A DNA stretch of 57,402 bases, counting the filler, from Sphacelaria rigidula (Eukaryota): assembly GCA_964200075.2 (NCBI GenBank). It is 4 parts of 4 records of this genome, joined end to end, with 100 filler letters (N's around TTAATTAATTAA, not from the genome) between each part and the next. Parts side by side here need not be neighbours in the genome. Positions count along the whole stretch, not along the records: positions 28,754 to 43,028 come from CAXNAA020002342.1; 3 more parts are not named here. One strand, written 5' to 3'. Every line of letters starts with the position of its first letter. Position 1 is the stretch's first letter. Below are positions 6,465 through 43,128 of the stretch, piece after piece. Under the pieces are notes generated by a model. It saw only the letters and a list, made by a program, of their open reading frames with translations, did not search any database and had not been told where the DNA came from. A program made the translations under genes and the position numbers.

Positions 6465-7155
6465 TCAACCGCTGGCTGTGCCGGCTGTTTGAGGACGGCC
6501 AAGCGCCTCCTCAATCGCGGCAGCAGTGCCAGAGGCAACCGCCATAGCCTCCGTCACACCAAATTCTCCATTCACACCGTTCATCCCCACTCCCGCTGAT
6601 TCGTTGACACCGCCAACTATACTCCCGACCGACGAAATGCACGCCGAACCGTCGCATGTTTCACCACCCGTTAAGAGGGACCGGTTTTTGGTACGGTGTA
6701 GCGGGCGCTGTGATTGCTGCTCTTGTTTGCAAAGTAGTAATGGCTTATGCGTTCCCAAACCTTCGCTGCCGGTTACCGCCGCCACTGTTTCACGATCGTT
6801 AGAGTCAGGCGGAATATCAGCAGCCCTATTGTCGCTGTTGCGGTTGCTTTGTCGTCCCTCCGATACCAGGGCGCGCTGTGTGTCCACCCCTCCTGCATTT
6901 CCCCTTATACTTGAGGGACTTCTCGTACCACTCCAGTCGCCGTCGCTTGCTGGATTTGACCCAGTCAGTTTTTCGGGCTTGAATCCGAAGCCTCGTAGGC
7001 ATTCCAATGCCTGGCCACGCATACTTCCAGCTACACGGGTCGCTACGGTTGGTCCTAGGCGATTGTCCGTGACCAAGAGCTCTCTCAAGCGACCGCAATT
7101 TCCGGCGAGGCCCGCCGCCAGGAAGACACCCCCTTCGGGTCCGAGGTTGTTTGCT
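6465..7155 (-). CDS. Terminal exon of a leucine-rich repeat protein (ribonuclease-inhibitor-like LRR) with a low-complexity tail; upstream exons not found in this contig
   Basis: Minus-strand pyrimidine tract and AG at 7157-7156. Translation ANNLGPEGGVFLAAGLAGNCGRLRELLVTDNRLGPTVATRVA fits the RI-like consensus LxxLxLxxNxLGxxGxxxLA. Frame stays open to the stop at 6465. Confidence 0.65.
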
Positions 7156-7761
7156 CTAATCCGGAAGTGTAAGGGAAAGGAGGGGAGGGGAGGGGTCAGC
7201 ACGGGTCAAGTCTTGGCGGTGAATGTTAGCACGCACCACACGCTTCTCTCAGCGGGACGAAAACAGTGAAAGCGTAGTATTTGCTGTAAGGGACTGAATT
7301 GAACGGTATATGAAGAGCAACTCTGGACGATGGTTTCTTGCGTGCGGAATTTGTTTCGAAAGGCTGGAATTTATACATAGTCGAACGCACTGCTTAAACA
7401 ACATGTCCTAGCGCATGAGTAATCATCAGTACTCAAAGCATGCTCACCTTGTTGTCCTGCTCTCTTACAAAGGACAGCTTATTGGCAAGGAACCAGATGC
7501 ACTATGCACAGGCTGATTCACGGAAGATACCATGGTTCATAAGAATCAGGGTTCATACGGGTTGATTCGCCATGAATGTTGACTGCGAATCATGTATTAG
7601 AGAATCATCCGATATGAACGAAGGATGGTCAAGTTGTACGCTCAGGGTTGTACCTCACGAATCACGAACTAGGAATGTATACACTCCAAGTAGTGTCACA
7701 CGAATCAAGAGTGCACAATACGAGTCACAATTTCTGAATGATTCAATGGATTGAAACACCT

Positions 7762-14277: not shown

Positions 14278-14377
14278 NNNNNNNNNNNNNNNNNNNNNNN
14301 NNNNNNNNNNNNNNNNNNNNNTTAATTAATTAANNNNNNNNNNNNNNNNNNNNNNNNNNNNNNNNNNNNNNNNNNNN
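14278..14377. other. Artificial contig linker (N44-TTAATTAATTAA-N44)
   Basis: Directly visible; six-frame stop linker at 14322-14333. Confidence 0.98.
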
Positions 14378-23265: not shown

Positions 23266-26200
23266 TTAAGTCCTCTTGACACCCGAAAAAGACGGCATGG
23301 TGAAAGTTGCGCCGCCGGCCTCGTCGGCGGTTCGTTTTCTGATGTTCGCTTGAGGACCGCTCGCCGACGATGCCTCCGCGACGTGCTCGGAGCAGTACTC
23401 TAGGGTTGCCCCTCCGCTGCCCTCCACCGTGTAGGTCGGCATCCTCCGGCAGTGCCACTGCGCGCATCTGTTTGTTTATTTTTTGTAATATTCAAACGGG
23501 TTAAGAACTAGGCTTGGGGATGGGATTCCAGATCTTAAGGTGAGCTCCAACTGTGGAGTCAAACGGGTTGTCACGAAAGCGTTCTCATACGTGCAAACAA
23601 ACAAGCAGGAGTCTCATGCAGATGGAGAAGCACGGGTCAGGACACCGTCACACCGTCACCTATGCGTGGGACCGCAAGTGTGTTCTGCGGGACTGCGACA
23701 AAACTCCACCGTGACCAAATCCACACCGATGACCGAGCCAAAATCACCCCGAAAAAGATCACCAAGCGCGAAGCGCCGTGGTGTGCTTGGCGAGTCACAT
23801 GAAGGGTGAGCTGCATTCTACCAACATTGTTCGGCCCGAAGCCTACTGATCATCTCGCATTTGGATGGCAGATGAGTGGCTTCATTTTCTGGTACCTCCA
23901 CCACCTGAGACAGCCACGGCGTATACACTGCCTCATGGGTGTCTCACCATTTAGACACTAGGAAAGAGGGGGGACTCATTTGCTGCTCGCCTTAGTGGTT
24001 TCACAATTGACCACGCATCCCGTTCGAGATGGAGCGCCGTTCTCATCCCTACTACAGACCTCTCCAACATGTGGGTACTCACTACGTTTCTTCCATACAC
24101 AACACAACAACCTTTTACATATCCTATCCCCTTCCTGCTTCGCTGTCTGTGGCCACAATCTGTCTCCTGGTATAGCCATCGCTTTCTCCCTACTCTCTAA
24201 TGCATCAGACGATTTCATGCCACGTCGTTTACTTCCCGCATTTCTCCCCCCAGCACGTCCCGCTCCTCCTTGTATATCTCGAGTACATGTTTTACCACCT
24301 TATGAGTTCTACACTAATGCTTTGCCACAGGAGTAATTCTGTGAATCTTCTTCTTCCTCCTCTCGACTACTGGTGTACTACCTCTCTCTCCTTTTTGGCA
24401 GGTCCAGATCCCCCACCCGAAATCGCGGTTTCATTTTTTTGCGAGTCCATTGGGCCATGCAGATGTGTTTTCATCTCAATCCCCAACCCCTTCTCCACCC
24501 CCCGTATATCTTCAGCTGCTCTTTCTGGTTAACTTTCCGTCTTAGCGCATGTTTCCTCTAATTTCCATGATATCTCTTCTGTCGTGTGCCCTCCGCATTC
24601 ACCTATCGACATCATCCCGTCTTGGTTTCCTCTTATGTCCTTCCATTCTTTCTCGACTACGCCACCCCCCTTGTTCCAGCTTTTGCCCTTTCATCATCTC
24701 CTTCCATACGGCCCTATCGACTGAGAGAGATGATTTGATCCCTCATGACCGCAGACTCGTTCGGAGGATTGGGAGGTGGTTCGAAGTACGGCCGAGAGAA
24801 AAATGTTTGGAAATTCATGCGCACGGCATTTCCTTTGGTCATCGTAATAAGTGATAAAAACAGCATACAGCATCAAGCGACGGACATCTTCTCGACGCCA
24901 CTAGGGCCACATGTAGGTTTTTATCTCAAAGGTTAGATTGCCGTCGAAGCTACAACCATGGCGAAGGTAAGGGTTTCGGCTACGGCTGTGCCTCCATGTA
25001 TAACGTACAGTACCCAAGAAACACCTGGCCAACAAATGATTGAAAGACGTGTACATTATCGGGGTCGCACTGCCGTCTCGCGCCTACCGAAACTTCCAAG
25101 GGCATGTCGGGTAGGGTACACCCGATACCCGGGTATTTTGAAAAGTCGTACTCTTAATACCCAATCATTTGGGTAGGGTGCTAAAATCGTTCCCAAGCTA
25201 CCCAATATTTGGGTAGAGCACTGGAGATCATACCCACACTACCCAAAATTTGAGTAGAATATCGAGGTCATACCCAAGTAATACTCTACACCCGGGTATT
25301 GCTAAGAGTACTTACCCAAAATTTGGGTCGAGTATGCGAGGTTGTACCCAATCTACCCCACATGTGGGTAGTAGTATTTCTACCCAAGCCTTGGGTAGAG
25401 CATTGAGTTCGTACGCAAGTGACACTATATACCCGGGTATAGCGGAGAGTACCTACCCGATTTTTGGGTAGAATGTTTGAGATTTTACCCAATGTACTCA
25501 ATCGTTGGGTAGGGTATATACCTGGGTATTTTACCCGAGTACTCAAGAGTACATACCCTACCCGACACGCCCTCGTAAACTTCTTCATCCTCGGCTTGTA
25601 GTGTACTACTGCAATTTTCTCGATGCTCGATCGCCACACTATCCATGAAATATGGCGTCCACCTGTCATGGAAACGCTGCCGTGATTTACGAAGGTGAAT
25701 AATGAAGAACATCCAATCGCCTGACGTAAAACTAGGGACAGGGCTGGGGTTTCGTACAGTTGGGTTGGCTCACCGTCTATTTTTCACCAGCACCATGCCC
25801 TCTCGCGCGTGAGCGTCGCAGTACACCGACACCTTGCTGGAGGGCTCTCCGTGTGTGGCATGCCTGTAGCAGCCCACCTTACCGTCGGAGTTACGTTCAG
25901 GATATATATTGGGGTTCACGGTTGATCTTAGTTCGGAGGTCGGACATTCGAGCCAAGAGGAAGGAAGAAAAGGGTAAGCAGTATGTGGATCCATGGGGTA
26001 CAGCGCTAGGATTTGGGGCTAGAGCAAACACCGGTTTCAACAAACGTGGAATGTGCGTCGCCGTTAAGGGCCTGGCTTTTCTCACCTCTGCGCATGCCTT
26101 CTTCGAGAGATTAATCATGCCTGCTGCAGCGTGCGCAGAGCAAAAACGCGGCTTTTTGGTGCCCTCCACCCCGTAGCTCGGCTGCCGTGCGCAATTCTCT

Positions 26201-26844
26201 GTCTCGCAACGCCTGCGTGCGATGCAATCATAGAGAGGCGATCAGATCAGTACGGTTCAATGGAGCATCTATACCAAGTACTCGTAAAACAGACCTCGAT
26301 ACGATGGAGGTGTGCAGTACATATATGTTCATGCGTCGGCGATGTGGAGTACAAGACAATGACACGGGAAATCAAAAGTGGGCCGGGGGCGGGTCAATAA
26401 GGCACGCTCATATTATTCCCGCCAAGGTACATGTCGACTCTACGGCAAGTATAGGTTAACATCAAGGAGTAGGTTGAAGTCACAGCGAGACGCGAAAAAG
26501 TTGGCGCACACGAAGCACCCACTCCATTCATTCACTTTGTACGAGGCATTGCAAGCGTTTCCGAGGCGAGCCTTGGTTTACACTGACTTGTTCTTGACAT
26601 CTTGCATTCCATCCAAAGCATGCTGAGCGCAGTGAGAGGGACGACCCCCAGGTATTCCGTAACTTGGCCTCTTGTTGCAGCCTTCCGTGTCACACACGCG
26701 ATGTTTCACGTTCACCATGCCCTCGGTGGCGTGCTGCGAGCAGTACACCGACCCTTGGCCAGGTAATCCGAATCCAGGCCGCCTGGAGAGTCGAGCGTCG
26801 GCTTGGGTGCGTTAGTTTAATTCCTTACACACGGTGAAGACAAG

Positions 26845-26876
<32 letters not shown>

Positions 26877-27835
26877 CCGCATTGGCGCAATGACACAAAT
26901 AACAAAGAACTTCACATCTTCCGCGCTCAGCGCTGCGAGCTCACTCATCGACGTTGTTGTCATGTCCTGCCCTTCACTTTCCCTCGTGCTTATTAATAGT
27001 GGTCAAGTCGACAACATCAGCGCGTCTGAAGGATCTGCAGTCACAATTTGGAAATGATTTTAGTCCCACAGAGTGAAAACCACCGACACATCTGCACTAG
27101 ATCCCTGCTACATATGCACAACACTGCACAAAATAGTAGCTTTACACTAACACACTCCGCCGGAAGTCTCAAGGTTATGTTCTGTACCTTTTGTAGGGTG
27201 TACCCGGAAGTGTGGGATTTTTGGTTGGCATACTATCACCAAGCCATACCGCAATGTTCGGTACACTTTCTCGTATGTTCCGGCTGGGTTTCGACCCCTG
27301 TTCTGAACGCTTCGATATGATTCGGAAGGGAATTCACCGATAAAGTTCCTCCTTGTTACCTCTACCTTACCCGAATTGCAGCCGGCTCACCCTACATAAC
27401 ACAATCTCGAAAACTTCTACAGACTGACCTGAGGTGGAGGTACTTCAGCAGCGTGCCGTTTCTCGGTGCTATCAATATCAAGAAAATGCGGCATTAACAT
27501 TTCTTTCACGAGATGAATAGTTGAACAAAACGCATAACGCGAAACAAACCAACACAAGAGCACAAAAAAACAGCCCTCACCTTGCGCAGCCTTCGGTAGC
27601 GCACCGTTTCCCCCGAATGCTCACGTAGTCCCCGGGAGCGTGCTTGGCGCAAAACAGAGCAGTTTTGACCCCAACCGGCGCGTAGCTCGGCTCCGTAGAG
27701 CACCCAGTTTCAGAGCACTTCCTACTGGCCACATTCATCATGGTTTCTGGGTCCATATGCAGCGAGCAGAAAAGGGCCTTCTTGGTCCCCCTGGGACCGA
27801 AGCTCGGCTGCTTGTCGCAATCTGGATCGATACAC
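23266..27835 (-). CDS. 5'-partial EsV-1-7 cysteine-rich repeat protein (7 visible repeats); exons 27835-27581, 26782-26588, 26212-26086, 25877-25774, 23467-23266
   Basis: GT-AG introns with consistent phases (2,2,0,2). Repeats C-x4-C-x3-(P)-x-(F/Y)-G...C-x2-H...M-x-N-V, e.g. CIDPDCDKQPSFGPRGTKKALFCSLHMDPETMMNV, CDTEGCNKRPSYGIPGGRPSHCAQH, CETENCARQPSYGVEGTKKPRFCSAH. TAA at 23268-23266. Confidence 0.9.
23760..23960 (-). mobile_element. Short interspersed element family 'S', partial copy lacking its tail
   Basis: AAGCGCGAAGCGCCGTG...GGCGAGTCACATGAAGGGTGAGCTGCATTCT...GGGTGTCTCACCAT recurs at ~31360, ~37220 and (inverted) ~40260. Confidence 0.75.
23965..24720 (-). mobile_element. 5'-truncated, degenerate LINE 3' fragment (family 'L') in the last intron of the EsV-1-7 gene
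   Basis: Reverse complement matches 54130-55365; encodes the remnant ...PGDRLWPQTAKQEGDRICKR...GCVVNCETTKASSK. Confidence 0.8.
25097..25575. mobile_element. hAT-like MITE, 479 bp, with ~22-bp TIRs and an 8-bp TSD
   Basis: CAAGGGCATGTCGGGTAGGGTA ... TACCCTACCCGACACGCCCTCG. Flanks GAAACTTC (25089-25096) and TAAACTTC (25576-25583). Interior rich in ACCCAA/TTGGGT and ACCCGGGT units. Confidence 0.8.
26845..26877 (+). repeat. (AAC)11 microsatellite, intronic
   Basis: Directly visible. Confidence 0.95.
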
Positions 27836-28319
27836 CTGCACACATTGTATACCCATCATGCAATACTGTTTGTATTATGCGAATCATGCGATATTGTGAT
27901 AGTCCCAAGTTTATGCAATCCTCTTCCAAGCGCGGGTATCCCCGTCCGCGAGGTCAAGGGTCCTTCCAAATAACCCTAACCCTAACGCTAAACCTAATCG
28001 CAAGCGAGGACAGGATCACCGATACCATCTTCGGTAATGTTGCAGTCTCCGGGAGTGGTGCCAACTTTTCGACAAAGCTTCTCTCTGTGACAAAGTCATC
28101 ACACCCATCGGGTGGCCGGATTCAATTTATATATCGAAGAAGAAACTACATGGCGCAGGATACGACGCAAGCGCAGTCCACCAACACACGTTTTCCCATC
28201 CGTTAACTGATGATACGCATTCCAGCTCATGCTGATATCTTGCGCATTCCCGTGGGGACCCTTTGTACTCAATTTTTTTCCATTACAACAATTAGTGACT
28301 AGCCACAACAGAAACATTG

Positions 28320-28653: not shown

Positions 28654-28753
28654 NNNNNNNNNNNNNNNNNNNNNNNNNNNNNNNNNNNNNNNNNNNNTTA
28701 ATTAATTAANNNNNNNNNNNNNNNNNNNNNNNNNNNNNNNNNNNNNNNNNNNN
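28654..28753. other. Artificial contig linker
   Basis: N44-TTAATTAATTAA-N44. Confidence 0.98.
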
Positions 28754-29350
28754 CCTTTCCGCGCCGTTTTCTTCATGTCTGTTTTTTTCCCCCGCTGGTT
28801 TCGGGACCCGAGCCCCGTTTGCCACTCCCCCCCCCCCCCCCCCCCCCCCCCTCCCACACACACACACACACACAAAAAAACCCCGAAAAGCGCCTGGTCT
28901 GGGGAAGCAAATTATTCACGTATATCGAAACGTAGAAAGCCGAGCATAACGAGCAGCTAGGAATTCCCACGCATGGGTTCGTTTTCGCCAATGTCGCTTA
29001 TAGGAGGCGCTTCATGTAGCCTGAACCCAAACATCAGGCGCTGCATGACCATTTTTTCCGTGACACTTTTGGGCTGTTTTGTTGGGGGGTGGAGCGAGTT
29101 TTAGGGGTCCAGAACGTTTCGGCATATGTATAGGGTGGAGCGAGTAGAAAGCGGTGATTTTTTGCGACACGCGTTCGCAGACGCTGATATAACACCGAAG
29201 TCCACGCTCGTAGCCGCTATTGTGATCGATATCGCGAAAATCTTGTTCGCCCCCCTTCCCCTCAGTTTTTGTTCTTATTGCCGTGACTTCAACACCTGCC
29301 CGAACACGAAATGACTTCATCCGTTCACCATGTACATATCCGTCATCAAG

Positions 29351-32300
29351 AGTCAAGAGTCAATTCCTCGCGTATTCCCTCGTGCCCATGGATGCTTCGC
29401 CAGGCATCAGCCCTATCCTCCCCACCAACTGGTATACCACTGGCACGATCAATGCTCTGTGGCTGGAATATAACCTCGGCATGTGGAACGGTGACGACCT
29501 GCTGCGCACGTCACAAGACCACAAGGACGAGATGTTCTGGCAGTCACACACCTTCTCGCACTTGGCCAGGGACAACCTCGGGGTGAACGACTGCAGCATG
29601 GAGGACGGCGGTAAGCCTTTTAGGTTGGGCGCTTGCTCTACTCCATCCTGTTGTTTCACACCGCGTTCGATTAGAATTAATTTTAAAAAGAGCTTTCAAT
29701 AATGAGAATTCCGCCAAGAACCTAACGCCGAGGTCTGCTTTTGAGTGGCTGGTGGAGAGGGAATGCATCCATGAGAACTGTGCTGGTCTTGTGTGAAATA
29801 AAACGATCTAGTCAGTGGTTTATTCAATCCCGCACGATAGAGTCACTTTCTTCTTCTGTCGTGAGGATGTATATCGCGATCACGCACTGAACTGAAAAAC
29901 AATATATATTTTGCACCAATGTCTCTTGCTGTCACACTGACAACAAGCGTACCCATGTCGGGATTGAATACAGAACACTTCCTCGTTGAGGATTTATTTT
30001 TCTCATGTAAATTTGTTGTCCTTCTGAGCACGTAGGATCGATCGTTTCTTCTCTTCCGCAGCATTTTGATACGCACACATTTCCCGTGTCGCCTCATCAC
30101 GCTCAATGCCCCCGTTATCGTAACGTATTGGTGTGCAGCCAACTCTCAGATAGCCGACATCATCGGTCTCTTCGACGCGGACACCTATAGCTGGGCCTCT
30201 CAGACAACTCCCGGAATCACAGGACTGTTCAACAAATACTGCCTGCAGTCGGCGGCGGACAACAAAATCACCTGCGCCCCCGGAGACAACACATACGACG
30301 GCGTTCAGGTTCCCGTTAGCTTGGTGTCCGCGGTCAGTCAGTTCCACTCAACATACCAAGATGACGTAGGTGAGAAGACGCATGTACGTACTCCCACCCC
30401 GCGCGCCCCCCTCCCCGCCCCCGCCCCCGCCTCCGAGTACTGTCTAGCCGTCACATGAGAGAACACTAGAGTGCGTGCGAATGTGTTTCTACTAGCACCC
30501 TTTTTGTCGAAATCTTCAGTGCTGCAGGCGACAAAAGGTCTGTCGCTGGACAGGTGATGCGACGACCACTCTATGGATTGACGCACGTTTCACCTTCAGT
30601 TACACCGTGACCGTTGACGTCATTGTGCCTGAACAACATCGTCACCCCGGTGCGTTTCCAGAAATGGGTGAAGCCGCATTTTCTCCCGACGGGGTGAGCG
30701 TTGGCGTCCATATATATGGATCTGGATCTGGGACTGAGTCTGGAGATAAATTCGTGACCCGAGGTTTTTTTTGGTTGTAGACATTGTAGCGCGTTCTAAA
30801 CTGATAATCCACGGGGGTTTGCATGTGTTGGTTGCTATTCGCACGCGCGCGAGTCGCCAAGGGTCGGGCGTTGAGCGGAGCTACGTCATCGTCTGCGTCG
30901 TTCGATTTATATCTTGCTACCATGCTCTGCGTGTACGTTATTCGATTGACAGTTGTACACAGGCACACACAGGGCCGATAAGTTTTTGCCTCGTCCTGTT
31001 TGCTGATAACCTCTCCTCGAGATCCTTGAATGCATGTAGCCCCCGCTCTCCCTGTCCCTTTCGTCCGCGACCTGTTCTCGGTGTTGTGATGGCAAAAAAA
31101 ATCGCCTTTGGAAAGGTTTTCCCGACTTCCAGGTCGTGCCGCGATTTGCATCGTACGTCTACTTCAACTGCGTCAACACTGATGTGAGGGCTGCCCACCA
31201 TCCAAGGGATTCGTGGTGGGAAAGGGAGGGGAGGAGGGGGGGAAGAGTGTACTCATGGTATTGCATTCCGTAGTAATTAGACCATTGACCTTGCATCCTT
31301 ACAGAAGTGGGACGGAGCATGCAGGGTTTTCGCCCGACCAGGCTCACAATCAATCACCCAGCGCGAAGCGCCGTGACGTGGTCGGCGAGTCGCATGAAGG
31401 GTGAGCTGCATTCTGCTACGACTGTTGGGGCTGAGACGTACTGATTATCTTACATGTTGATGACAGACCCCAATGGGTTGCTTTATTCTCTGGTATCGCC
31501 ACTTTTAGACGCGGGTTGCACTGCCTTATGGGTGTCTCACCATGGGGGGGGAGGGGTAGAGGGAGGGGGGAGGCGGGAGCGTACTCATTTGTTGCTTGCT
31601 TTAGTCGTTTGACCATTGACCACGCGTCCCTTTCGAGATGTAGCACCCTTCCTACTAGAGGGGGGGCAAGGATAACCTACACTACAATACATAGTAAGGA
31701 CGAGTACATACATGACTCTCTTTGTGCGACTGTGTCATGCATGAGAACGCTGTTTGCTGGGGTCAATACCGTCAAAATATCTTGGAGACGAATATACCAG
31801 TTGTCGGCTAACAAAAAAACGCATGCAGTGCTGAAACATCAACCACGAAACGTCAACATCCTGACTCATGCGATAGTTAGCGCAAACTCTTGAGTATCTT
31901 CGTTTCGGCTGGTCATTCGAATATTTGAAATGACATTTTGGCGGTATCTTGCATTTTGTGCAACACTGTACGGCACTGCTACTATACTGCACACCACGTG
32001 CTAAATGCATGAACTCCATGGTGAAAGCCTACGAACATGGATTTGTAGCGGATCAGAGAATGTGCGACAATCCCACTATTAATCACTGCCGTCGCTGCTA
32101 CTTGTCCCGCACAAGGTTGCTACCTCCAAAAAACAGTCATATAGTAGGGTCAGGTATGAGGTGTGGGTAACTGGTGGCATCTATACATCAGATGCATCGA
32201 TCAGGCAGCAGTCGCATGAACGCATTTCTGGGTGGAGCAAGTGATTCTGCTTGTTCGCTCTCCGTGTGCGTTGTGCCTACTCGCTGGCCTAACCTCTTTT

Positions 32301-34619
32301 GAGGGTGAGAGTTGACGCTGGTGATTTCCTGCAGTATTGCCGTCCTGTGCTGAAGTGAAGTGATGAAACCAAAAACGCATTTGACTGGCAACCAATTTCC
32401 TCCTATTCGCGATTCCTCTCTCCACCGCGAGTGAGGTCGGGTAACGGTCGGTAGCGTCGGTTCACACGCATTCTTGACTCGTAGTACTACTATATGGCGG
32501 TTACCCATGTCATGGGTCATATCGACAAACGACCACCGTCGAACGAGCTTTTTTGGTTTTAGCGAGCCGCGGTTACCCAAAGGGTTGATGCTCTTGACGC
32601 CCGAATCAACTTTTAATATCTTGTATTGTGAGTAGATATCATCAGGCTGAGTGTTCTGTTTTTCCATCGTTTTTTTTTGTTTTTTTTGTTTCAGGTCGGC
32701 CATTTCTTTCTGTGCTTCGCCTATGTTGACCTTTTTTATTATTTTTTTGTTTCGACTTGGTCGGCTATGTCGTTCTGTTCGACTTTTTTTTCTGTTCCTT
32801 CTTCTCTTCAGCGAGTGTTTCAGTGTTGTTTTTCTTGGGTTAGTCCATCACGAGATCACGGCTGCACCCCTCAGGGGTCAGTTAAAGTACGACAATCAAA
32901 ATCATCATCATCATCATCATCATCATTGTCATTGTCATCATCATCAGCATCATTCATCATGTGTATGCGAACACATGTCAAGTATGCGTCCTGGTTATGA
33001 TGAGTACACATGCAAGACACAGGCATACGCTGGTAAAGGTTACGCTGACAAATAAAAGAACGCGTTTCAAAAACTCTCCATCACCGTACCACCCTACTTG
33101 AGTCTGCCACCATCCAAACCCTCCCGGGTCTTGCAAAAGTGCGACCCGAACAACCGCACATGTGTTAACCCTTTTGGAACTCACAACGAAAAATTCATCA
33201 TTTGCAATTGACGGTTTTTGAGCAAGATATAGTTGATGGTTCACAGCTCAGACGCAACAACATTCACCAGAAATGCGTATTTTTTTGACCCGTGCTAGTG
33301 ACAAGTGAAACGAAAGGAGGTTTCCTATTCACCGATGTGCCGTATCAGACCCTGGAACCCATTGCTGTTTTTTTAATGGAACGTTCTATAGTGTTTTTGC
33401 TGATTATTTTGGATGGATATAATTGGACACACTTCATCCGTTGCGTGGAATAATTGGACAAACCTCACCCGACCTCTCCAGAGAGGACATTTTTTCTGCA
33501 CCCGCCGCATGTGCTACTGGATTCTTCTTCGGTCTTCCATTGTCAAATGGTTGCCGTTGGCCTTTTCTGCTTCCATCTTTTCGTCTTTGTCAAGGCTTCT
33601 CATAATGAGGCGTTTGGCCCGGGGACAGGAGGGGAGGGTTCCAAAAGGGTTAAAAACCGTCTGTGACTATTTCCTTGTAACCTCGCCACCATGAAGGACT
33701 CGAACGAACGACGTGTTGAACATGCCACCTTCGTCCTACCTCGGAAACCTTAGTCCATCCTCACGCTTAGAACGCCCCTCAGGTACTGCTACCCAAATGT
33801 TCTGTCGAACAGCCATGCAGCTCAACCGTAACCTCCCAATAGGCGAATGGCTTCATTCCGATCTTGGCCCCAAATGTCGTTGACTTTATGCACGGGACGC
33901 TCAATCTAATCTCGCACTCCCTCCTCCCCCCCTCCCCTTTTCCGCTTGTTCGTTTGTCGATGACACGCTCCATCATCAGTGTCTTATCTTAGAGAATCTG
34001 TACATCCGTCGGGTGACGTGTAAGTGCGACAACCTCGATCCTGGAGATATCGACAACCTCAACACCGACACCTCGGTGAGCCTTTACCAGCACAGTAAAC
34101 GATGACGAAGGGGGGGGAAAGCTAGCCAATACTCTTAGAGCTGTCGGGTTGTGCTACAGTCAGTGAAGACCTCCGCGGTACACATACATCGCGGCAGCGG
34201 GTCCACGCGCGTTGTGTCGACTACGTAGCGGCCTCGATCGTTTGAGCTTCGAAGTGGTACGGGTGGCGAAGTTGGTGTACTTCCGGTGGCAGTCCGATCG
34301 ATGGACCAAAGCCGACGGTACCTGGTCCACGTGCCGGACGCGGTACCATACCAGCTGCAGTGATCGTCATCTATAAAGTACAGTCGACTACGACTGTGGA
34401 GTAATTCGTGCAGCAGGCACAATCCCAAAGCCAAGCATTGGTCATGCGGTATTATCCCGTTGCTACGGCGTGTGTATTTCTCCTCTACCTGCCTCTTCTC
34501 CCACAGGACTGTCGGATGGACACGGCATGCCCGCTGGGCCTACAGGCCTTGTTGACCGTGGACAGAATTTTCGAGACAGAGGCCAGCACCACGGTTCGCT
34601 GGCTCTTGACCGGTCGCAG
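29351..34619 (+). CDS. Internal exons of an Agd3-like (CAZy CE18-type) polysaccharide deacetylase; exons 29351-29610, 30139-30369, 31116-31183, 33980-34075, 34507-34619; partial at both ends
   Basis: GT-AG introns with consistent phases (1,1,0,0). Spliced product contains FWQSHTFSHLARDN, TTPGITGLFNKYCLQSAADNKITCAPGDNT, GFPDFQVVPRFASYVYFNCVNTDCLILEN and IFETEASTTVRWLLTGR. This is colinear with Agd3 motifs as I recall them (SHTFTH, PPAITGLHN...DNGI...VGDNT, PRWATRIYYNC). The first acceptor could alternatively give a start at 29358. Confidence 0.8.
31245..31545 (-). mobile_element. Family 'S' short element, near full length, intronic
   Basis: Sense strand runs ATGGTGAGACACCC ... AAGGATGCAAGGTCAATGGTCTAATTAC ... 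ATGAGTACAC into a C-rich tract. Confidence 0.75.
31575..31660 (-). mobile_element. Short 3' tail fragment of LINE family 'L'
   Basis: Reverse complement TCTCGAAAGGGACGCGTGGTCAATGGTCAAACGACTAAAGCAAGCAACAAATGAGTACGC matches 55305-55365; G tracts on both sides. Confidence 0.8.
32901..32960 (+). repeat. (ATC)n microsatellite, possibly the tail of a retroposed element spanning ~32430-32960
   Basis: The repeat is directly visible; the tail interpretation is inference. Confidence 0.85.
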
Positions 34620-35559
34620 GTGAATCAACGCTTTTAACGTTCACAAATCTCGGTATTTGCAAACAGGCAGTTCAAAGTTCGAGTGCCGGAAGATACGGAT
34701 TATTTCCGAGAGGTCGATGATTTTCGTGGTTAAAAACATAAGGGCAAAGTTATTGTTTCAATAATTATTGTAAATATATCCTTGAAAGCCGCACGGGACC
34801 TGGGGCTGCGCCCCGGTCCCGTCCGTCTTTTTCGAGGGTCTCGGTATTCTTGCCTTGCCAAGCTCTCGTGAGAATATATCCTCCTTCACAATGTTCATGC
34901 CCGCCGGGAGATTGCAGGACCACCGCGATCGCGCCTCCGTTCGAACGGTCGCGAACGTATGTGTGCCTCCGCACAAAGCAAAGCACGAATCCGCTAGCCG
35001 GGCCCTTAGCATTGGCATTGCCCCGAACAGTCATCTCCCGGGGCGGGTGCGGAGGAACTTGCATACTAAAATCAGCAATTAATCTCGTGGACGCCTTGTT
35101 ACAAAGTATGCTCCACGCTCGTGAGTTCGAAATATTCTATATATATATATACTATTTCACATTAGCCCGATCTCTCGAATCCAGTCACAAACGCAGGCTC
35201 GTCATTCCAGTACTGTTACCGTGATTCCTCACGTGAGATAACTGCTTCTTCTGACACTCTAACATAAAGCAAATTAGTATCAAATGAAACAATAAGAAAA
35301 AAGTGTCAAGAAAGCAGACGAGAAAAAACTTAACTCCCCCCGAGTTGGTCAGGGTGCGGGGAAAAACAAACTCATCAAATCCGCCAATGAAGTAAGCACA
35401 GGAGAAAAGAAAAAACAGACAAGAAGAAAGAGGACCGACAATGAGAAGCACACGAAAATCAAATAGCAGCCCCAGGTACCCTAAAAGAAAGAAAAAAAAA
35501 GTCTTGGGAAGTTCTTGGGAAGACAGCAGACGCACTCGCGAGTGTACTACGCGACGGTC

Positions 35560-37090
35560 TACTCATTACGTTTCGGTGGTCCTCGATAGGCGCAGGAGAA
35601 CTCTAGCGGTAATATATCAAACAATCTCTTACTCTACAGTATCGGCAGCATTCGGAAACATCTTGGGCAGCCTGCGTCCACGATTTCACTTTTATGCCGA
35701 AATAGGAGCAGTATCCCGTGGCACTGTGTTGTAAGCGTCTCGCTGGTCGGCCTGCCGCCGTCGCTCCTCCCGACCATTAATCCACGCGTGACGATGTTGG
35801 GGAGGCGTTCGTCGTGAATGAGCACGACTTGGTCGGCGTGTAGGAGGATTCGCCTCATCACGGTAGCCAGTTATTTCAAGGACCCCGCGGCATGGCAGCA
35901 CGTGGTAGTCGGGAGCACTGCGGCTTGCGGTATGCGTGTTGAGGCACCTCAGCAGGAACCCGCGGTGGGCTTCCCGCAACGTGTCGTCCCTGTTGGGCGC
36001 GATCATCCAGGTCTCACAGCCATATGACACGAACTCGATCACTTCTGCCTTCAGGAGACGAACCTTGGCGGCCAGGGCGATGTACGGGTTGCCGTATACC
36101 GCTCTGCTCTACTTGTAGAAGCCCCTCCAGTCCCGGCAATGCGGCCGTGGACCTCAGGAATGGCATCGCTGGTGCTGCTGATTTTACCACGTAGATAGAT
36201 GAAGAACTCAATTTGCTTGTAATTTTAGCCTGCCGCTTCCATGTCGACGCATCCGTCTGCATTCTTGGGGAGCACATGTGCACTGTTACCGTCTTCTTTT
36301 CCGCCACACGACGAGACCGAATGCCGCGCAGACTTCGACGACGGCCGTCATCGACGATGCCAGCCTTGGTTGGCATCCCGAGACGATACCAGCATGGTCG
36401 ACGTATAGCATGGCCCAAAGTACTTTGCCAAGTCTGTCCTTGGCCCTCCCGCCCCTTTCAGCGATGCGAATGAAGCCCTCTGCCACTGTCTTTTTTTGTT
36501 GTCAAGAAGTCGTCGAAAGTCACCATGAGCACCGCCGGTAAGATGCTGAACAAACCGGGGGAAAGCACACAGCCACGGCGGAGGACCTGAGGTAACGTCA
36601 AATCACTCAGGCGTCTCGCCGCTGTCAAGGCTACGCACGTCCGCATACCGTCGTGGAACTGGTGGATAATGGATATCACCTTGGTGGGGACGCCGTATCG
36701 TGCTAGCACCTTCCAGAGAAGAGCGTGGTCGACTGGGTCGCACGTAATCTGGAGGTCGATGAAGCACATGTATAGTGAAAGGTTCTTCTCGCTGGCCAGT
36801 TATCGGAGTCCGCTCACAACGTGCGTCGTATCAATTGTCGATCGACTGGGTCGGAAACCGCGTTGAGCTTCTGGGAGGATACCCTTCCACTCAAAGTAGG
36901 CGCTGAGGCGAGTCGCAACTGACTTCGGAACCATCTTACCCGCGTGGGATCCTAGCGAAAGATCACGGTAGTTGCCGCATTCTTGCGGGTCCTGTTTGTT
37001 GACAGCACCTTGATGACAGCGTCTTTCCATTTCTGCGGTGCTATTTCCTGACGCCACACTGTGAGCACGATGTGGAGGTATTCAGTGCAG
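35560..37090 (-). mobile_element. Degenerate RTE-clade non-LTR retrotransposon (reverse transcriptase region)
   Basis: Frameshifted RT motifs in order: KWKDAVIKVL, CGNYRDLSL, ILPEAQRGFRPSRSTID, MCFIDL...DPVDHALLWKVLARYGVP, LRRGCVLSPGLFSI, MLYVDH (YADD position), YGCETW. Confidence 0.88.
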
Positions 37091-37104
37091 CAGATTCCTC
37101 GGTG

Positions 37105-37410
37105 AGGGGGTATACTCATGATCTTGCATGCCGCAGTCATATGACCATTGATCTCATATCCCTACAAAACCGGAACGGAGCACGCCGGGTTCGCCGGACC
37201 AGGCTCGCACTCAAACCACCAAGCGCGAAGCGCCGTGCTCGGCGAGTCGCATGAAGTGCTAAGATTGTTCGGCCTCGAACGGTACTGATGATCTTGCATT
37301 TGGATGACAGCCTACGATGAGCTGCTCCATTTTCTGGTATCGCAACGTTCAGAGACAGCCATGGGTTTCACACTGCCTCCTGGATGTCTCACCATTTAAA
37401 CACTACGTAG
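37105..37410 (-). mobile_element. Family 'S' short element (a further fragment lies at ~37612-37660)
   Basis: Same body. 5' end GTAGTGTTTAAATGGTGAGACATCC; 3' tail GGGATATGAGATCAATGGTCATATGACT...ATGAGTATACCCCC. Confidence 0.75.
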
Positions 37411-37674
37411 TATGATCATCGCTCTTTGCGCGGAGTCGAGGCTCTCCCATCCCGCACAATATGATCTAGCTCGATCGTCATCATGGTTACCGCAAAACAA
37501 AGACGCAAGCGCGCAAAACGAAACATCGGTAACGTGGTTGCCCAGCTTACGCAGTGAGTAGAGGGGTTTCCAGCGTCATCGCCAACCGACGCCAACCCAA
37601 TAGGGGCTCCGTCCCTACAAAGCCGGGACGGAGCACGCCGGGTTTTTACCGGACGAGGCTAACCCGAAGATCTC

Positions 37675-40600
37675 TGACAAATAGTATATGGCCGTGCGTT
37701 GTCTGATTAGAGAGTGCCTAAGCACAGATGAGACTCAGGAGTGAGTTGCTGTACGCGAGTGAAAAGGTGGGCCAGCGCACAGGTGGCGAAACCGTGCAAG
37801 TCTATATTCACACACACGAAACTGTCAACATCCGCACGTCAGCCTGTTCCTCCCGCATCTACGGAGATCCCACTGACTGTAGCTGTCCATAGAACACTCC
37901 CCGCCCCCCTGATCTGGTGCATCAGTGACACTCTCCAACGATTGAGGGGGAAACTTGACCTTCCGGGTAAAATCCGCATCTCCTTAAATTCCAACGCTTG
38001 AACTCAAATGTAACCGCTGCCTTTGTAGACGTCGGTGAGGGTAGACGTACGCCATACCGAGAACGCCCTACGATGTCCCTCAAAGTAGCGTATGTGACTT
38101 AGCCCAACTTAAGAATATCATAATTTCGTGAACCAAGACTTTGAGCGCCTAGAGCCAGACACCAATAGACGCACAACCGAGAAAAAACGCATGTATCTAC
38201 TTGTCATCCTCCAAATTCACGAAGGCGGGTCGGTGTCTCTTGAACAAGAAGACCGGGAGATCTCGTCAGGATATCAGCATGCTGCCATCGTAAATCTATG
38301 TGCATGATATCGACATTTTCCACCCTCACCAAGTCTTGAAAGAAGAGCAACTTCGCGTCTGTGTTCGCCAAAGGTAGAGCTGAGGCTTTTTCAGGCAAGG
38401 CCTTGTTCCCCCGTTTGTCCTCGTGAAGATCTATGTCGTAATCCTTCGCACACCCCGACACAGCTCTTGGTCCTGTCGCAGTTTAGGAGCCCCCCTTGGT
38501 CTTATTATGCAAACCTTTCATCGAGTCGGCCTGACCACATCGTACATGGCTCTGTACTATCGGCCAGAGCGGGGTGGTCTCCCTCCTCCCGAGGGAGATT
38601 AACAAAGCTTCTCCTCCTGAGCGAGGTGATCCTGGGTCTGCCTGCATGCAAGGAAGCTACCACCCCATCGCGGGTCCTTGGCGTGGTGTTCGGTTCCGCA
38701 TGGGGGTGTCAGGTTCCAGATGGGGCTGTCCGCAGTAGCACAGGGGTGTCCCGTGCCAGAGGGGGTTATTCCCGACCCGAAAAAGTGTCCCTAAACCACG
38801 GGGGCCCCTAAACTGCGACAGGTCCTAAAAAACACTGAACCGCCTTTGCAAGCATGCCTTCGTTATATTTCACACATCAGTACCGTACGGGCGGTCTACA
38901 ACCGTCTCTTTACCCGTTACTAGCTCCAAGTCTGCAGAAGGTGAAAGTAGGGATATCCGGGAAGCCTGCCACCTCGAAGCGCTTCAACAGTGTGTCTTTG
39001 AACGTGGCAGCACCATAGAGAGTGCGCCCCTTCCCCGATCTCTGTCTATAGCACATTCCATGTACCATTTATACTCACCAAGGGTGTAGGGGAAAGTTTC
39101 AGCAAGTTTTTATTCGCCACATCTACCTTCTCCTTTTCCCCACCGATTGGGATGTAGTCTTCCTGCACGACTGGATCTACTTGCACACATCCAGCTTATT
39201 CCGTTTTGAATACGCAGGGGTCAGCTTTACTCTGCTCCATCCCAACACCCACCAACAACGTCTTACAAAAGAGGCGTGGACGTTGCCTGCCAGCCTGCTT
39301 TACGCCATGAATCAATTTGTCAAGCTTCACAGTTTTCCCATGTCGAAGTATCGCAACCCTTCGGTAGCTTCATGTACACGACAGTGTCCATGTCGGCTCG
39401 CAGGGTGGCTTGTGCCACATCGAACTGGTACAACGGCCAAACTTCTTGTACCGACATTGCCATGTACATTTTTGTCAACGCCATAGATAGTGTTACAGCA
39501 AAGGTCCCGAAGTAAACAGTCTATTGCAACACGCTGTCCGTAACCACGCGCTACGAGGTCGAGCCTTCGCCTTGGTCGCTAGATTCTGGGCGTCGGCCTG
39601 CCAGCCGGACACTCATTTCGCTATGATTACGTTTACTCCTCCCGGTATTGTACCAGTCGAGAAAGTTCCTGCTTTCTCGTGGCCATTGAAATTCGGCAGG
39701 CATAACACTGACCCACGCTTTGGTAGTCTGACTTCGCTACGTCATCAGAGGACACAAGGACACTTTGCACATCACTGACATACGTTCTAGTTGGAGAACC
39801 CATCCACCTGAACTCGAGTTGCCCGCCAGTTTTCTGTGTTGTCGTCGCTGGTAAAAGCTGGGAGACCATTTTCCGCTAGTTCTTCCTCGATCGCTATGGT
39901 GGTTTCTGGCACCGTTTGCGGGCCCGTCGCCCCTTTGGTATTCTCCGTTGCCTTGCACTTGTCTTTAGCCAGCCCCTTGAGCACAAACGTTGCATACGTG
40001 ATCATCAATTGAAGTCCAACTTCTTCATCTGTGGACATCGGCCCCATGGCGTTCCGCATTTGTGGTGATAACTCGTCTGCCCACGCGAGACAGCGCCGAG
40101 CGGTCCACGGGAGTTGAGGAGCGTCAGTGATCCCCCCCACCATTTTTCTCTGGAAGTGACGTTACCAGGAAATGAAGCAACTCATCGCAGGCCGTCATCC
40201 AAATTCAAGATCATCAGTTCGCTTCGGGCCGAACAATCGTAGCAGGATGCAGATCACCCTTCGTGCGAAATCGCCGAGGAAACACATCACGGCGCTTCGC
40301 GCTTGGTAATTGATTGCGAGCCTTGTCCGGGGGAAACCCGGCGTCCTCCCTCCCGGCTTTGTAGGGATGCGAGGTCAATGGTATAATTATGGCATTCAAG
40401 ATGAGTACACCATTTTCCTCAGAGGGGTCTGTGAACGAGGATAACTAATGGTGCTGGCGACGACAGTGCAGATGATGGCGACATCGACGTCGCGAGTGGA
40501 GGTCCGGCGACTCGGATGCAGACAAAGGGTGTGGCGGCGTAGACGACGCTGCAGCTGATGCTGATTCGCTATCTTTCCTATTGCTGATCGGGTTTTGAAA

Positions 40601-42780
40601 GGGGTTCTGTGGCGTCACTCTGCCTTCTCCGCCCCCCCAAGGGTATGGTGAAGCCGTTCTGCCAACCCCGCTACCGACGGGTTTTTGCGGTGTTGCTCCG
40701 TTCCCTCCCCTCGCCAGGGAACGGAAAGGTCGACGTCCTTTGAGAACCGCGAAGCACAGCGCCCACCGCTGGCGTCCCCTCCACCAGCTTGCTCTTGCCC
40801 GGCCCTTCATCGACCTTGGAATCGTCCGCCTTACCCGACGCCTGGATCGCTTGCTGTTTCGTGGGGGACGAGGTAGAAAAGACGTGTGCCCACGTTACAT
40901 GTCTCGTCACGATTATCTGCCCTGAGTTGGTCAGTACCCGCATAGCATCACGTGGGCACCCTGGAGTTGGGCTCATGCTGCCGGCACCTCTGCGTCTTCG
41001 GTTGTAGCTTGTTAGTCTTCCTCACCCTGCAAAATTTCAGGAACGGAATGAAGCTATGGTCCGGTAGTGACCCGTGCCATATTTCATGCGGTGACTTGTT
41101 GCCAGGATTAGCCAAAGTCGCGGTACAATTCACTGGATGGCATGCCCAGTGCACTTGTTCAGTCCCAAATTGTCACGAGCGATGATATTGCCATTTGGGT
41201 ACATTTCAGACGCCTGAATTCTGGCCGCAAGGCTCACTGTCTCGATGATGCCTACCGCCAAACCGTTGAACTGCGGAGAGTCCACGGTTGTCTTCTCCTG
41301 ATTGTTTTTCTCTGCCATACAGATCAGCAAACGCACCCTCCAAAACTTCACCCCCTCCATCACTTCGATCCCTCTCTACCTTGCGGGGAGCGGTTTCTAC
41401 GAGGTACTTCGTGTAATAGTGTTCGGCCTTACCCTGTGAGCGAAGGAAATACAGTGTAGTGTACCGAGAGCATTTCTCACGAAGTATTATCAGGTATCAC
41501 CAGAGACCCATGATAGCGGTTTTTGGTCCTGCAAGATTTACGAACACTCTGGGCGCTCGCTTAGTTTTGTGTGTAGATCTTGGAATAGGCCGTCGGGGTC
41601 CTTCCGCCTCCGCATACCCCTTGCACGGCCCCAGCTTCCCCTGCAGTTGCACTCTGAATTGCCCCGTCGTTACGCGCAGGGGGTTGCCGTGTGTGTGGGG
41701 ATGAAAACAGTTGATGTCAACGATTTGGGGGGTCAGGTAGAGCCCTCGGGGGTTATCACAGCATACACAGATGCGCACTTGTCCTTACTGGTGGGGTCAA
41801 TGCGATAGGTGTCATGTTTCGGGACTTGGTTCTAATCGGGCATAGCCAGTGTGTTGTCTGGCATTAGATCTACCTTAAACCCTCTACAAGAATCGAAACT
41901 GGTATTGCGTGCGTTTGAGATTCGCTTTGGCGACAAAAGGTGGTGATGGAAACCTACTACGTGGTCTACATCTTCACATGAACCACTCATACATTCTGCT
42001 CGTCAGGTGTTGAAGCCAGGCTCAAATCACCTCTCCCAACGACTGGGTAAAAGAACTACCGCCCGCACACCGTAGTATCCTGTCCCCGCATTCTCGATAA
42101 CCCGTCATGTTACTTGAATCAGGCGAAAAAATCTGGCTCACTCGAAATCCTGGGAGGAGCGGAGTGCCTTCCTACTTCTTCCTTCTCTGTCAGCTTCTGC
42201 ACCGGGTCATCGCGAACTCCAACTTCAACACTGTCAAACTTGTTCATCAGAGCCAGACTAGCCCCATTAGGTTTCGCACTGTATGATGCCTCCAATTCAG
42301 GCTATTCTGAACCACGAGAAGCGGCCCTGGATAGAAAATCTGTATGCTTCTTGCTGTCGAGGCTTACAAACAGCATTTCTCTTGCTCTCACGTGTGCTGC
42401 CACGTCCTTCCCATGCCCTGCCTCCAGGAGCCTCAATGACAATTCCGTACTTCCGACTTTCACGTCATACGAACTGCTTTTTGCCATTTTGAGTACCCAG
42501 CCACTGCCTCCCCCCTTGTAAAACTAATTAATTTGTGCTTCTATCAGATTCTGAGCTGTCTCCAGATTATCTTGGCACACATGGTCAGAAAACGGGCACA
42601 CCGAGAACATGATGTTCACTAAAACTGTAAAAGGCGACTAACTCGCGTTCGGCTCCCAAGCTCCTTGCTCTATTGTCTCCTGCCCTGTGGTCTCCCGCAG
42701 ATGGGGCTTCTTCTTGGCTCAGGTCTGATGTCCTTCCGTGGATCTACTTAATGTTAGGCAGTTGTATTCCTCTGAACCCC
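37675..42780 (-). mobile_element. Degenerate Ty1/Copia LTR retrotransposon; candidate 3' LTR 37896-37675; 5' LTR absent
   Basis: Minus-strand domain order: protease-region remnant (~42300), pre-integrase (HPHTHG...CKGY, RVFVNLAGPK ~41500-41700), integrase (SPQFNG, NKSPHEIWHG ~41000-41300), RT (KLDKLIHGVKQAGR ~39300), RNase H (QDLVRVENVDIMHIDLRWQHADILT ~38260-38340). Polypurine tract AGGGGGGCGGGGAG lies directly before TG at 37896. Many stops and frameshifts; LTR limits are tentative. Confidence 0.85.
40145..40402 (+). mobile_element. Family 'S' short element nested in the Copia element
   Basis: CACGGCGCTTCGCGCTTGG...TTTGTAGGGATGCGAGGTCAATGGT...GATGAGTACACC. Confidence 0.75.
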
Positions 42781-42787
42781 TCCCGCT

Positions 42788-43028
42788 AGGTCAATGGTCG
42801 TACGACTAAGGCAAGCAACAAATGAGTACGCCCCATAGAGATAAAAACATATTTGTATGGCCCAATGGACGCTGCGAAAAATATGAAACTGCGATTTCGG
42901 GTGGGGGATCTAGACCCGCCAGAGAGAAGGAAGAGATATACCAGTCGTCGAAAGGACTAGGAAGAGGATGGACAGAACCGCCTCTGTGGCAAAGCAATAG
43001 AGAGCAGAAGTCATATAGTGGCAGAATG
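42788..43028 (+). mobile_element. LINE family 'L' tail followed immediately by another 5'-truncated 'L' copy
   Basis: GGTCAATGGTCGTACGACTAAGGCAAGCAACAAATGAGTACGCCCC then ATAGAGATAAAAACATATTTG...GCGATTTCGGGTGGGGGA, homologous to 54320-54500. Confidence 0.75.
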
Positions 43029-43128
43029 NNNNNNNNNNNNNNNNNNNNNNNNNNNNNNNNNNNNNNNNNNNNTTAATTAATTAANNNNNNNNNNNNNNNN
43101 NNNNNNNNNNNNNNNNNNNNNNNNNNNN
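43029..43128. other. Artificial contig linker
   Basis: N44-TTAATTAATTAA-N44. Confidence 0.98.

What the first reader, a model, noticed from the sequence alone, without database searches (positions are those of the whole stretch)
29351..34619. Agd3/CE18-like exopolysaccharide deacetylase in an apparent brown alga
Seen: five phase-consistent exons, two of them (68 and 96 bp) missed by the ORF track, encoding SHTFSH, PGITGLFN, GDNT and VVPRFASYVYFNC, plus a Cys-rich stretch (CKCDNLDP...DCRMDTAC). Known: Aspergillus Agd3 is the founding CE18 metal-dependent deacetylase of alpha-1,4-GalNAc in galactosaminogalactan. It uses an HxxxH metal motif and a conserved Arg, and makes the polymer cationic and adhesive. 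Brown algal walls are described as alginate, fucans and cellulose, and I know of no described N-acetyl-galactosamine polymer in them. Inference: an intron-rich, therefore long-resident, enzyme that points to an uncharacterised acetylated or amino-sugar glycan (adhesion, wall), to de-O-acetylation of wall glycans, or to action on microbial biofilm polymers; ancient horizontal acquisition is possible. The upstream DD motif and downstream MFHQ motif fall outside the visible exons, so catalytic competence is unconfirmed.
Basis: partly seen in the sequence, partly recalled or inferred. Interest (0 to 1): 0.75.

Follow-up and report, generated by a model that had tools for sequence, protein, structure and literature searches.

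The report
Seaweed enzyme for an unknown aminosugar
This is the middle of a real, spliced brown-seaweed gene for a fungal-biofilm-type sugar deacetylase; its family is multi-copy in brown algae and also carried by giant viruses, which hints at a wall or glue polymer not yet described in these seaweeds.

Summary
Confirmed, with one correction. Five exons (29404-29610, 30139-30369, 31116-31183, 33980-34075, 34507-34619; the first starts at 29404, not 29351) splice to a stop-free 237-residue frame. Spliced contigs from three runs of one study support the chain. The peptide is the core of an Agd3/CE18 deacetylase with the HxxxH and Arg motifs intact. The DD and MFHQ exons are not on this 14 kb contig, but the transcript runs on at both ends and full-length relatives keep all four motifs. 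The gene belongs to a multi-copy, cysteine-rich clade found in four brown-algal orders, including the early-branching Discosporangiales. Some members carry WSC or GH114-associated domains. Intron-free members sit among core genes in giant-virus contigs; the direction of transfer is unresolved. Published tables show brown algae have amplified GH114, the family of the fungal partner enzyme that cuts deacetylated galactosamine polymer. Best reading: a secreted metal-dependent de-N-acetylase for an algal alpha-1,4-GalNAc-type polymer (about 0.45). Substrate, polymer and synthase are untested. Databases already auto-label such proteins and one supplement lists one brown-algal CE18 fragment; I found no paper discussing the family.

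The parts
29404..29610 (+). Exon A (207 bp, phase 1-1): end of the beta2 insertion and catalytic motif CM2
   Evidence: RNA contigs X1, X2, X4; Pfam Agd3_CE 119-157; profile hit E 1e-22
29547..29561 (+). HxxxH metal-binding motif (HTFSH), equivalent to Agd3 H510/H514
   Evidence: sequence; alignment; residue roles from PMC7229062 passages
30139..30369 (+). Exon B (231 bp, phase 1-1): PGITGLFN and GDNT
   Evidence: RNA contigs; Pfam Agd3_CE 161-214, E 1.4e-5
31116..31183 (+). Exon C (68 bp, phase 1-0, weak AAG acceptor): motif CM3 VVPRFASYVYFNC
   Evidence: frame test; tblastn; RNA contig length arithmetic
31142..31144 (+). Arg codon equivalent to Agd3 R613
33980..34075 (+). Exon D (96 bp, phase 0-0): start of the cysteine-rich insertion typical of the algal/viral clade
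34507..34619 (+). Exon E (113 bp, phase 0-2): end of the insertion and helix up to GRR, directly before the MFHQ motif of relatives
   Evidence: RNA contigs X1, X2
34620..43028 (+). Rest of the contig, read as an intron of more than 8.4 kb with retroelement remains; no further exon found
   Evidence: no profile hit; RVT_1 and RVT_2 hits; RNA contigs leave the genome sequence at 34620
28654..28753 (.). Artificial spacer marking the start of the gene's contig; the 5' exons lie beyond it

Best explanation
The exons encode the catalytic core of a secreted three-domain Agd3/CE18 enzyme (CBM87-like domain, metal-dependent deacetylase barrel, beta-rich C-terminal domain). SHOWN: gene structure, splicing, family, CM2 and CM3 in this copy, all four motifs and hydrophobic N-termini in full-length relatives. 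INFERRED from Agd3: an Asp-His-His metal site activates water and removes N-acetyl groups from a polysaccharide. INFERRED, untested: the substrate is an alga-made alpha-1,4-N-acetylgalactosamine-containing polymer (galactosaminogalactan/Pel-like). Deacetylation would make it cationic, so that it binds anionic alginate, fucans or surfaces, and cleavable by the alga's amplified GH114 enzymes. Family membership about 0.95; this substrate about 0.45.
For: Motifs across the clade: DD in every row that covers it, HxxxH in 46 of 46 rows, Arg in 45 of 46, M.HQ in every row that covers it. The model of the Ectocarpus relative P0007 (pLDDT 89.7) matches Agd3 best (E 5e-41, target TM 0.77), far ahead of NDST1 (4e-14) and PelA (6e-8). 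Aromatic residues stand at the CBM positions W292 and W344 that matter for GAG binding (roles). Agd3 is inactive on chitin and chitosan oligomers; its fungal and bacterial genes usually lie beside GH114 genes, and Ega3 is specific for deacetylated GAG. Brown algae hold about 5 GH114 genes per genome, a family reported as amplified; GH135 is listed for Discosporangium (4) and Tribonema (1). 2 of 13 relatives scanned carry the GH114-associated domain. Transcribed and spliced.
Against: No galactosamine polymer appears in the brown-algal wall passages of a review, and three searches gave no paper showing one (listings only). No synthase was tested, as no genome is held. Identity to fungal and bacterial members is only about 27%; W292 is F, Y or W, Y620 is F in this copy, and a cysteine-rich insertion lies between CM3 and CM4, so specificity may have shifted. 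The same fold acts on GlcNAc in heparan sulfate in NDST1. The GH114-associated domain is an accessory domain, not the hydrolase. CM1 and CM4 of this copy were not seen. No GH114 gene lies on this contig's neighbourhood as far as examined, nor in three viral fragments (only 4-17% complete).
Confidence: 0.45

Rival explanations
1. A de-N-acetylase for another alga-made amino-sugar glycan (GlcNAc-containing or glycoprotein-linked), possibly freeing amines for N-sulfation as NDST1 does.
For: Second-best fold match is NDST1, whose deacetylase domain is Agd3-like; low identity to fungal Agd3; a sulfotransferase-family ORF lies about 9 kb from the viral copy.
Against: No sulfotransferase domain fused in 13 relatives scanned; sequence and fold much closer to Agd3; does not explain the GH114 link.
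Confidence: 0.2
2. A defence or antifouling enzyme: it deacetylates fungal or bacterial GAG/Pel biofilm polymer so that algal GH114 can cut it; the alga makes no such polymer.
For: No algal galactosamine polymer found in the papers seen; Ega3-type enzymes need deacetylated substrate; multi-copy secreted family with varied accessory domains.
Against: In microbes the enzyme makes biofilms more adhesive; retention by giant viruses fits a host-surface or virus-made polymer better (inference).
Confidence: 0.15
3. A de-O-acetylase of sulfated fucans, the known acetylated polymers of brown-algal walls.
For: Fucan backbones are commonly acetylated; the related CE4 fold includes an acetyl-xylan esterase (weak hit, E 0.36).
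Against: The three closest solved structures are all de-N-acetylases; no named hit from Fucales among (weak: word-based searches).
Confidence: 0.12
4. This copy is a decaying or non-catalytic paralogue that lacks CM1 or CM4.
For: Neither exon is on the contig; 8.4 kb after exon E holds only retroelement remains; the end branch is longer than its sisters' (0.44 against 0.14-0.26); one close relative has Arg to His in CM3 (P0008).
Against: Open frame over 5 exons, CM2, CM3 and 9 clade cysteines kept; the spliced contig in X1 runs 821 letters further 5' and 21 further 3'.
Confidence: 0.08

Closest known systems
Aspergillus fumigatus Agd3 (CE18/CBM87, PDB 6NWZ; PMC7229062)
   Same: Domain order, fold, catalytic motifs CM1-CM4 in relatives and CM2-CM3 in this copy, aromatic CBM positions.
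   Different: About 22% identity over the structural alignment with P0007; algal clade has a cysteine-rich insertion between CM3 and CM4; multi-copy, with WSC, extensin-like or GH114-associated additions; no GAG gene cluster seen; substrate unknown.
Brown-algal database proteins auto-named 'Agd3 deacetylase domain-containing' (UniRef names) and the CE18 fragment of Desmarestia herbacea (PMC11468063 supplement)
   Same: Same family; the window's peptide is 57% identical to Ectocarpus P0007 and groups with P0007, P0008, P0178 (98.9/100). The Desmarestia sequence itself was not seen.
   Different: These are automatic labels or a single table row; I found no text describing the family, its size or its function.
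Human NDST1 deacetylase domain; Pseudomonas PelA
   Same: Same metal-dependent deacetylase fold.
   Different: 11-14% and 9% identity; no sulfotransferase or hydrolase catalytic domain in the algal proteins scanned.
Genes shared by brown algae and their giant viruses, e.g. CHASE histidine kinases (10.1101/2024.02.19.579948)
   Same: Shared between algal genomes and Nucleocytoviricota; the viral Agd3 gene lies next to a hybrid histidine kinase with a weak CHASE hit.
   Different: The algal Agd3 genes are intron-rich with shared exon boundaries and occur in Discosporangiales, where that paper found no integrated proviruses; direction of transfer unresolved.

Membership tests
CE18 / Agd3 | Agd3_CE profile match | tested here: met
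   Single exons 13.8 and 24.7 bits, colinear but each under the 27.6 cut-off; 7 of 7 longer relatives 82-154 bits; the spliced peptide itself was not scanned against Pfam
CE18 / Agd3 | CM1 Asp-Asp (base and metal ligand) | tested here: inconclusive
   Exon is off-contig; present in all relatives that cover it
CE18 / Agd3 | CM2 HxxxH | tested here: met
   29547-29561
CE18 / Agd3 | CM3 arginine | tested here: met
   31142-31144
CE18 / Agd3 | CM4 Met and catalytic His (MFHQ) | tested here: inconclusive
   Not found on the contig; transcript continues past exon E; present in relatives
CE18 / Agd3 | Three-domain architecture with CBM87 | tested here: inconclusive
   Not visible for this copy; relatives give sub-threshold CBM87 and Agd3_C hits and the P0007 model aligns over 778 columns with the 665-residue 6NWZ chain
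CE18 / Agd3 | Secretion signal | tested here: inconclusive
   Off-contig; relatives begin with hydrophobic N-termini, judged by eye; no predictor available
CE18 / Agd3 | Metal-dependent de-N-acetylation of alpha-1,4-GalNAc | not testable with these tools
   Needs an assay
GAG/Pel biosynthetic system | GT4-type synthase, epimerase and hydrolases with the deacetylase, usually clustered | not testable with these tools
   No genome held. Published tables give GH114 widely and GH135 rarely in brown algae; the GT4 family is large, but no synthase orthologue was tested
NDST (heparan N-deacetylase/N-sulfotransferase) | Fused sulfotransferase domain | tested here: not met
   0 of 13 and 0 of 7 relatives scanned
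Endogenous viral element | Intron-free gene among viral genes | tested here: not met
   The window's copy has spliced GT-AG introns holding high-copy host repeats

The most novel reading that the evidence does not exclude
Brown algae make an undescribed cationic galactosamine polymer (a wall cross-linker or spore glue) with a fungal/bacterial biofilm-type toolkit of CE18 plus GH114 that predates the split of Discosporangiales, and giant viruses carry the same deacetylase and may have delivered it to the lineage or use it to remodel the host surface.
Probability: 0.35. Interest if true: 0.8.

Novelty: new variant of a known kind. Interest (0 to 1): 0.6.

Why it matters
Brown-algal walls are described as polyanionic (alginate, sulfated fucans) plus cellulose and glucans. 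A conserved, expanded family of secreted Agd3-type deacetylases gives the unexplained GH114 amplification a plausible partner and makes a cheap test obvious: look for galactosamine in walls, mucilage and spore adhesive, and assay the enzyme. It also extends CE18, described from fungi and bacteria, to brown algae, a green alga and giant viruses.

Tried and rejected
First-exon start at 29351: rejected by RNA contigs. Third-exon acceptor at 31133: gives stops. EsV-1-7 repeat exons at 25897-27855 as neighbours: another contig. Single exon against PDB: only chance hits. Search for DD and MFHQ exons in the window: none. Contamination: introns hold very high-copy repeats and DNA run X5 covers the non-repeat parts at even depth of about 65-110 (X5 may be the source sample). 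No run is on record as RNA; X1-X4 are guessed RNA. GTDB scan with the algal alignment: 38 pattern matches, 0 relatives (algal patterns, so no evidence of absence in bacteria). Viral scans with P0161 and P0189: none. First structure prediction (13 rows) was poor, pLDDT 48, and its viral search meaningless. BFVD with the good model: 0 matches at E<=0.001. Capsid and GH114 searches in three viral fragments: 0 of 3 each; the capsid control rang nowhere. Trees with the site-mixture model did not finish. AU tests could not reject algal monophyly (p 0.32, 0.30; 5000 replicates), so no donor is claimed. Earlier scan findings: none. The rest of the viral contigs was not read.
Full report
Setting. The window is four pieces of 14277, 14276, 14275 and 14274 bases joined by identical spacers. 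The finding lies on the piece 28754-43028, 650 bases from its start. No whole genome is held, so partner genes could not be searched.

Observation. Five exons on the + strand (29404-29610, 30139-30369, 31116-31183, 33980-34075, 34507-34619) have AG/GT ends and join to 237 codons without a stop. A profile of 13 relatives ranks exactly these five of 2449 six-frame pieces first, in order, with E 3e-34 to 7e-6; the sixth has E 4.7. I laid 4 of the 8 listed runs. In X1, X2 and X4 (guessed RNA, one study) single contigs hold 29403-29609 and 30138-30367 back to back with no mismatch. In X1 and X2 the same contig holds 34506-34620 after a gap of 165 letters, which equals exons C plus D once one-letter overlaps at the joints are allowed; in X4 the 70 remaining letters equal the end of B plus C. 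So junction A-B is seen directly, and B-C-D-E by length. DNA run X5 runs straight through the introns. The first exon starts at 29404, not 29351. Short gene calls from other algal assemblies share the boundaries: of 103 short proteins aligned to P0006 at 45% or more (of 106 held), 35 span exon B's limits and 18 end at exon A's end, so these introns are old.

Family. Exons A and B hit Pfam Agd3_CE in colinear order, each under the cut-off. Exon B retrieved 11 proteins, among them Scytosiphon, Ectocarpus, Pylaiella, Hapterophycus and three adjacent models coded Undpi1 (read by me as Undaria; recalled). Seven of seven scanned pass the cut-off; P0007 hits only Agd3 in the PDB, E 1.3e-25; its model (pLDDT 89.7) matches 6NWZ, then NDST1, then PelA. 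PMC7229062 (passages and one section read) defines CM1 D377/D378, CM2 H510/H514, CM3 R613 and CM4 M666/H668. The window shows CM2 and CM3. In 46 aligned rows CM2 is kept in all, the Arg in 45, and CM1 and CM4 in all that cover them.

Range. An exhaustive search gave 503 representatives at E<=0.001, with a gap between a close group (mostly 45% identity or more) and long proteins at 25-36% (best 150 seen). Of 10 close ones looked up, 7 are named brown algae and 3 unnamed; of the 10 best distant ones, 5 are zoosporic fungi, 1 the green alga Monoraphidium and 4 unnamed. A further search gave 43 proteins: 32 named brown-algal, 3 EukProt models without a taxon, 7 unnamed contig proteins, 1 fungus; fragments add Sphacelaria. 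Orders seen: Discosporangiales, Sphacelariales, Ectocarpales, Laminariales (order assignments recalled). No named hit came from Fucales, Dictyotales or other ochrophytes, which is weak evidence with word-based searches. Pylaiella, Scytosiphon and Ectocarpus each have several paralogues. Of 13 scanned, 2 carry WSC, 2 the GH114-associated domain and 1 an extensin-like stretch. Nine cysteines of the window's fragment are kept in 28-31 of 31 clade rows; seven of them occur in 0-1 of 14 outgroup rows, the other two in 9 and 3.

Giant viruses. Scans with the algal alignment found 2 IMG/VR loci (one virus, 99.98% alike) and 2 metagenome loci with single-frame genes, three whole (763-850 residues) and one cut by the contig end, 48-51% identical to the window's peptide. 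In L003 the neighbours include VLTF3, a D5-type helicase, an A22 resolvase, two DUFs, a SWIB protein and, adjacent, a hybrid histidine kinase with a weak CHASE hit; the helicase's nearest Atlas clusters are Nucleocytoviricota. L001 is syntenic; L002 is too short to class. Denoeud et al. (10.1101/2024.02.19.579948, passages) report CHASE kinases only in brown algae among stramenopiles and link them to viral insertions, so a phaeovirus-like virus is likely but not shown. Trees: in 63 rows (26 selected outgroup rows, 7 near-duplicates or fragments dropped) the algal plus viral group has SH-aLRT 100 on a long stem. In 46 rows (14 outgroup rows, 7 more dropped, 2 added) the window groups with Ectocarpus, Pylaiella and Scytosiphon proteins (98.9/100), the viral group is firm (99.8/100), and the backbone is weak; labels along the re-rooting path in that print are shifted by one node. 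The two trees root the clade differently, and AU tests reject neither nesting nor algal monophyly. Neither the donor of the clade nor the direction between alga and virus is resolved.

How it likely works. By homology, a secreted enzyme binds a polysaccharide along the CBM-barrel cleft and removes N-acetyl groups at an Asp-His-His metal site. Agd3 acts on alpha-1,4-GalNAc and not on chitin; its genes usually accompany GH114, which cuts the deacetylated product. PMC11468063 (passages and supplement searches) gives about 5 GH114 genes per brown-algal genome with no algal substrate proposed in the passages seen, 78 GH114 rows and 5 GH135 rows; Denoeud et al. list GH114 as amplified. With the shared accessory domain, this favours an algal galactosamine polymer (0.45). 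Against it: no such polymer in the brown-algal passages of PMC12223506, no synthase tested, low identity to Agd3, and NDST1 shows that the fold can serve another amino sugar (PMC10864358, passages). Rivals: another amino-sugar glycan (0.2), attack on microbial biofilm (0.15), fucan de-O-acetylation (0.12), dead copy (0.08).

Novelty. The family is known and described from fungi and bacteria ('algae' occurs 0 times in PMC7229062). Full-text searches for Agd3 with brown algae and with giant virus gave 0 papers; CE18 with brown algae gave 1 unrelated paper; some searches gave listings with nothing on the point by title and abstract start. But UniRef already names Ectocarpus proteins by this domain, and the supplement of PMC11468063 lists one CE18 fragment in Desmarestia herbacea. 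The library lacks most subscription journals, and the preprint supplements of Denoeud et al., which could list these genes, are closed. Verdict: a real, expressed member of an undiscussed, cysteine-rich brown-algal and giant-virus branch of CE18; new variant of a known kind; interest 0.6.

Noticed in passing
L003:9824-12370, L001:9959-12250, L004:6708-8297, L002:128-2680: Intron-free Agd3/CE18 genes in giant-virus contigs (L002 unclassed), beside a hybrid histidine kinase; no BFVD match and no paper found.
   Followed up: partly
L003:470-937: Sulfotransfer_2 family ORF (E 5e-7) in the same viral contig.
   Followed up: no
L003:19382-20830 (-): Viral ORF joining an MT-A70 methyltransferase-like part to a SWIB domain.
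   Followed up: no
proteins P0016, P0161, P0162, P0189, P0193, P0194, P0012: Clade members called as long single frames on unnamed ENA contigs; P0161 has a 32-residue insertion that looks like a short read-through intron. Source unknown: other viruses or a compact-genome eukaryote.
   Followed up: partly
proteins P0042, P0071, P0136: A separate branch holding the green alga Monoraphidium, with intact DD, HxxxH and Arg in P0042; it groups with fungal rows, not with brown algae.
   Followed up: partly
window 25897-27855 (-): At least three exons with EsV-1-7 cysteine-rich repeats, on another contig than the finding.
   Followed up: partly
window 31274-31420, 37105-37660, 40147-40389, 42784-42834: Copies of a very high-copy short repeat family in the introns (summed depth over a million in run X5).
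   Followed up: no
window 36461-36799 (-) and 39323-39520 (-): Decayed reverse transcriptase remains (RVT_1 and RVT_2) downstream of exon E.
   Followed up: partly
window 3544-5403 (+) and 6468-7205 (-): A 620-codon and a 246-codon open frame without Pfam hit; the second has a leucine-rich-repeat-like start by eye.
   Followed up: partly
window 14278-14377, 28654-28753, 43029-43128: Artificial spacers: the window is four unrelated contigs, so adjacency across them means nothing.
   Followed up: yes
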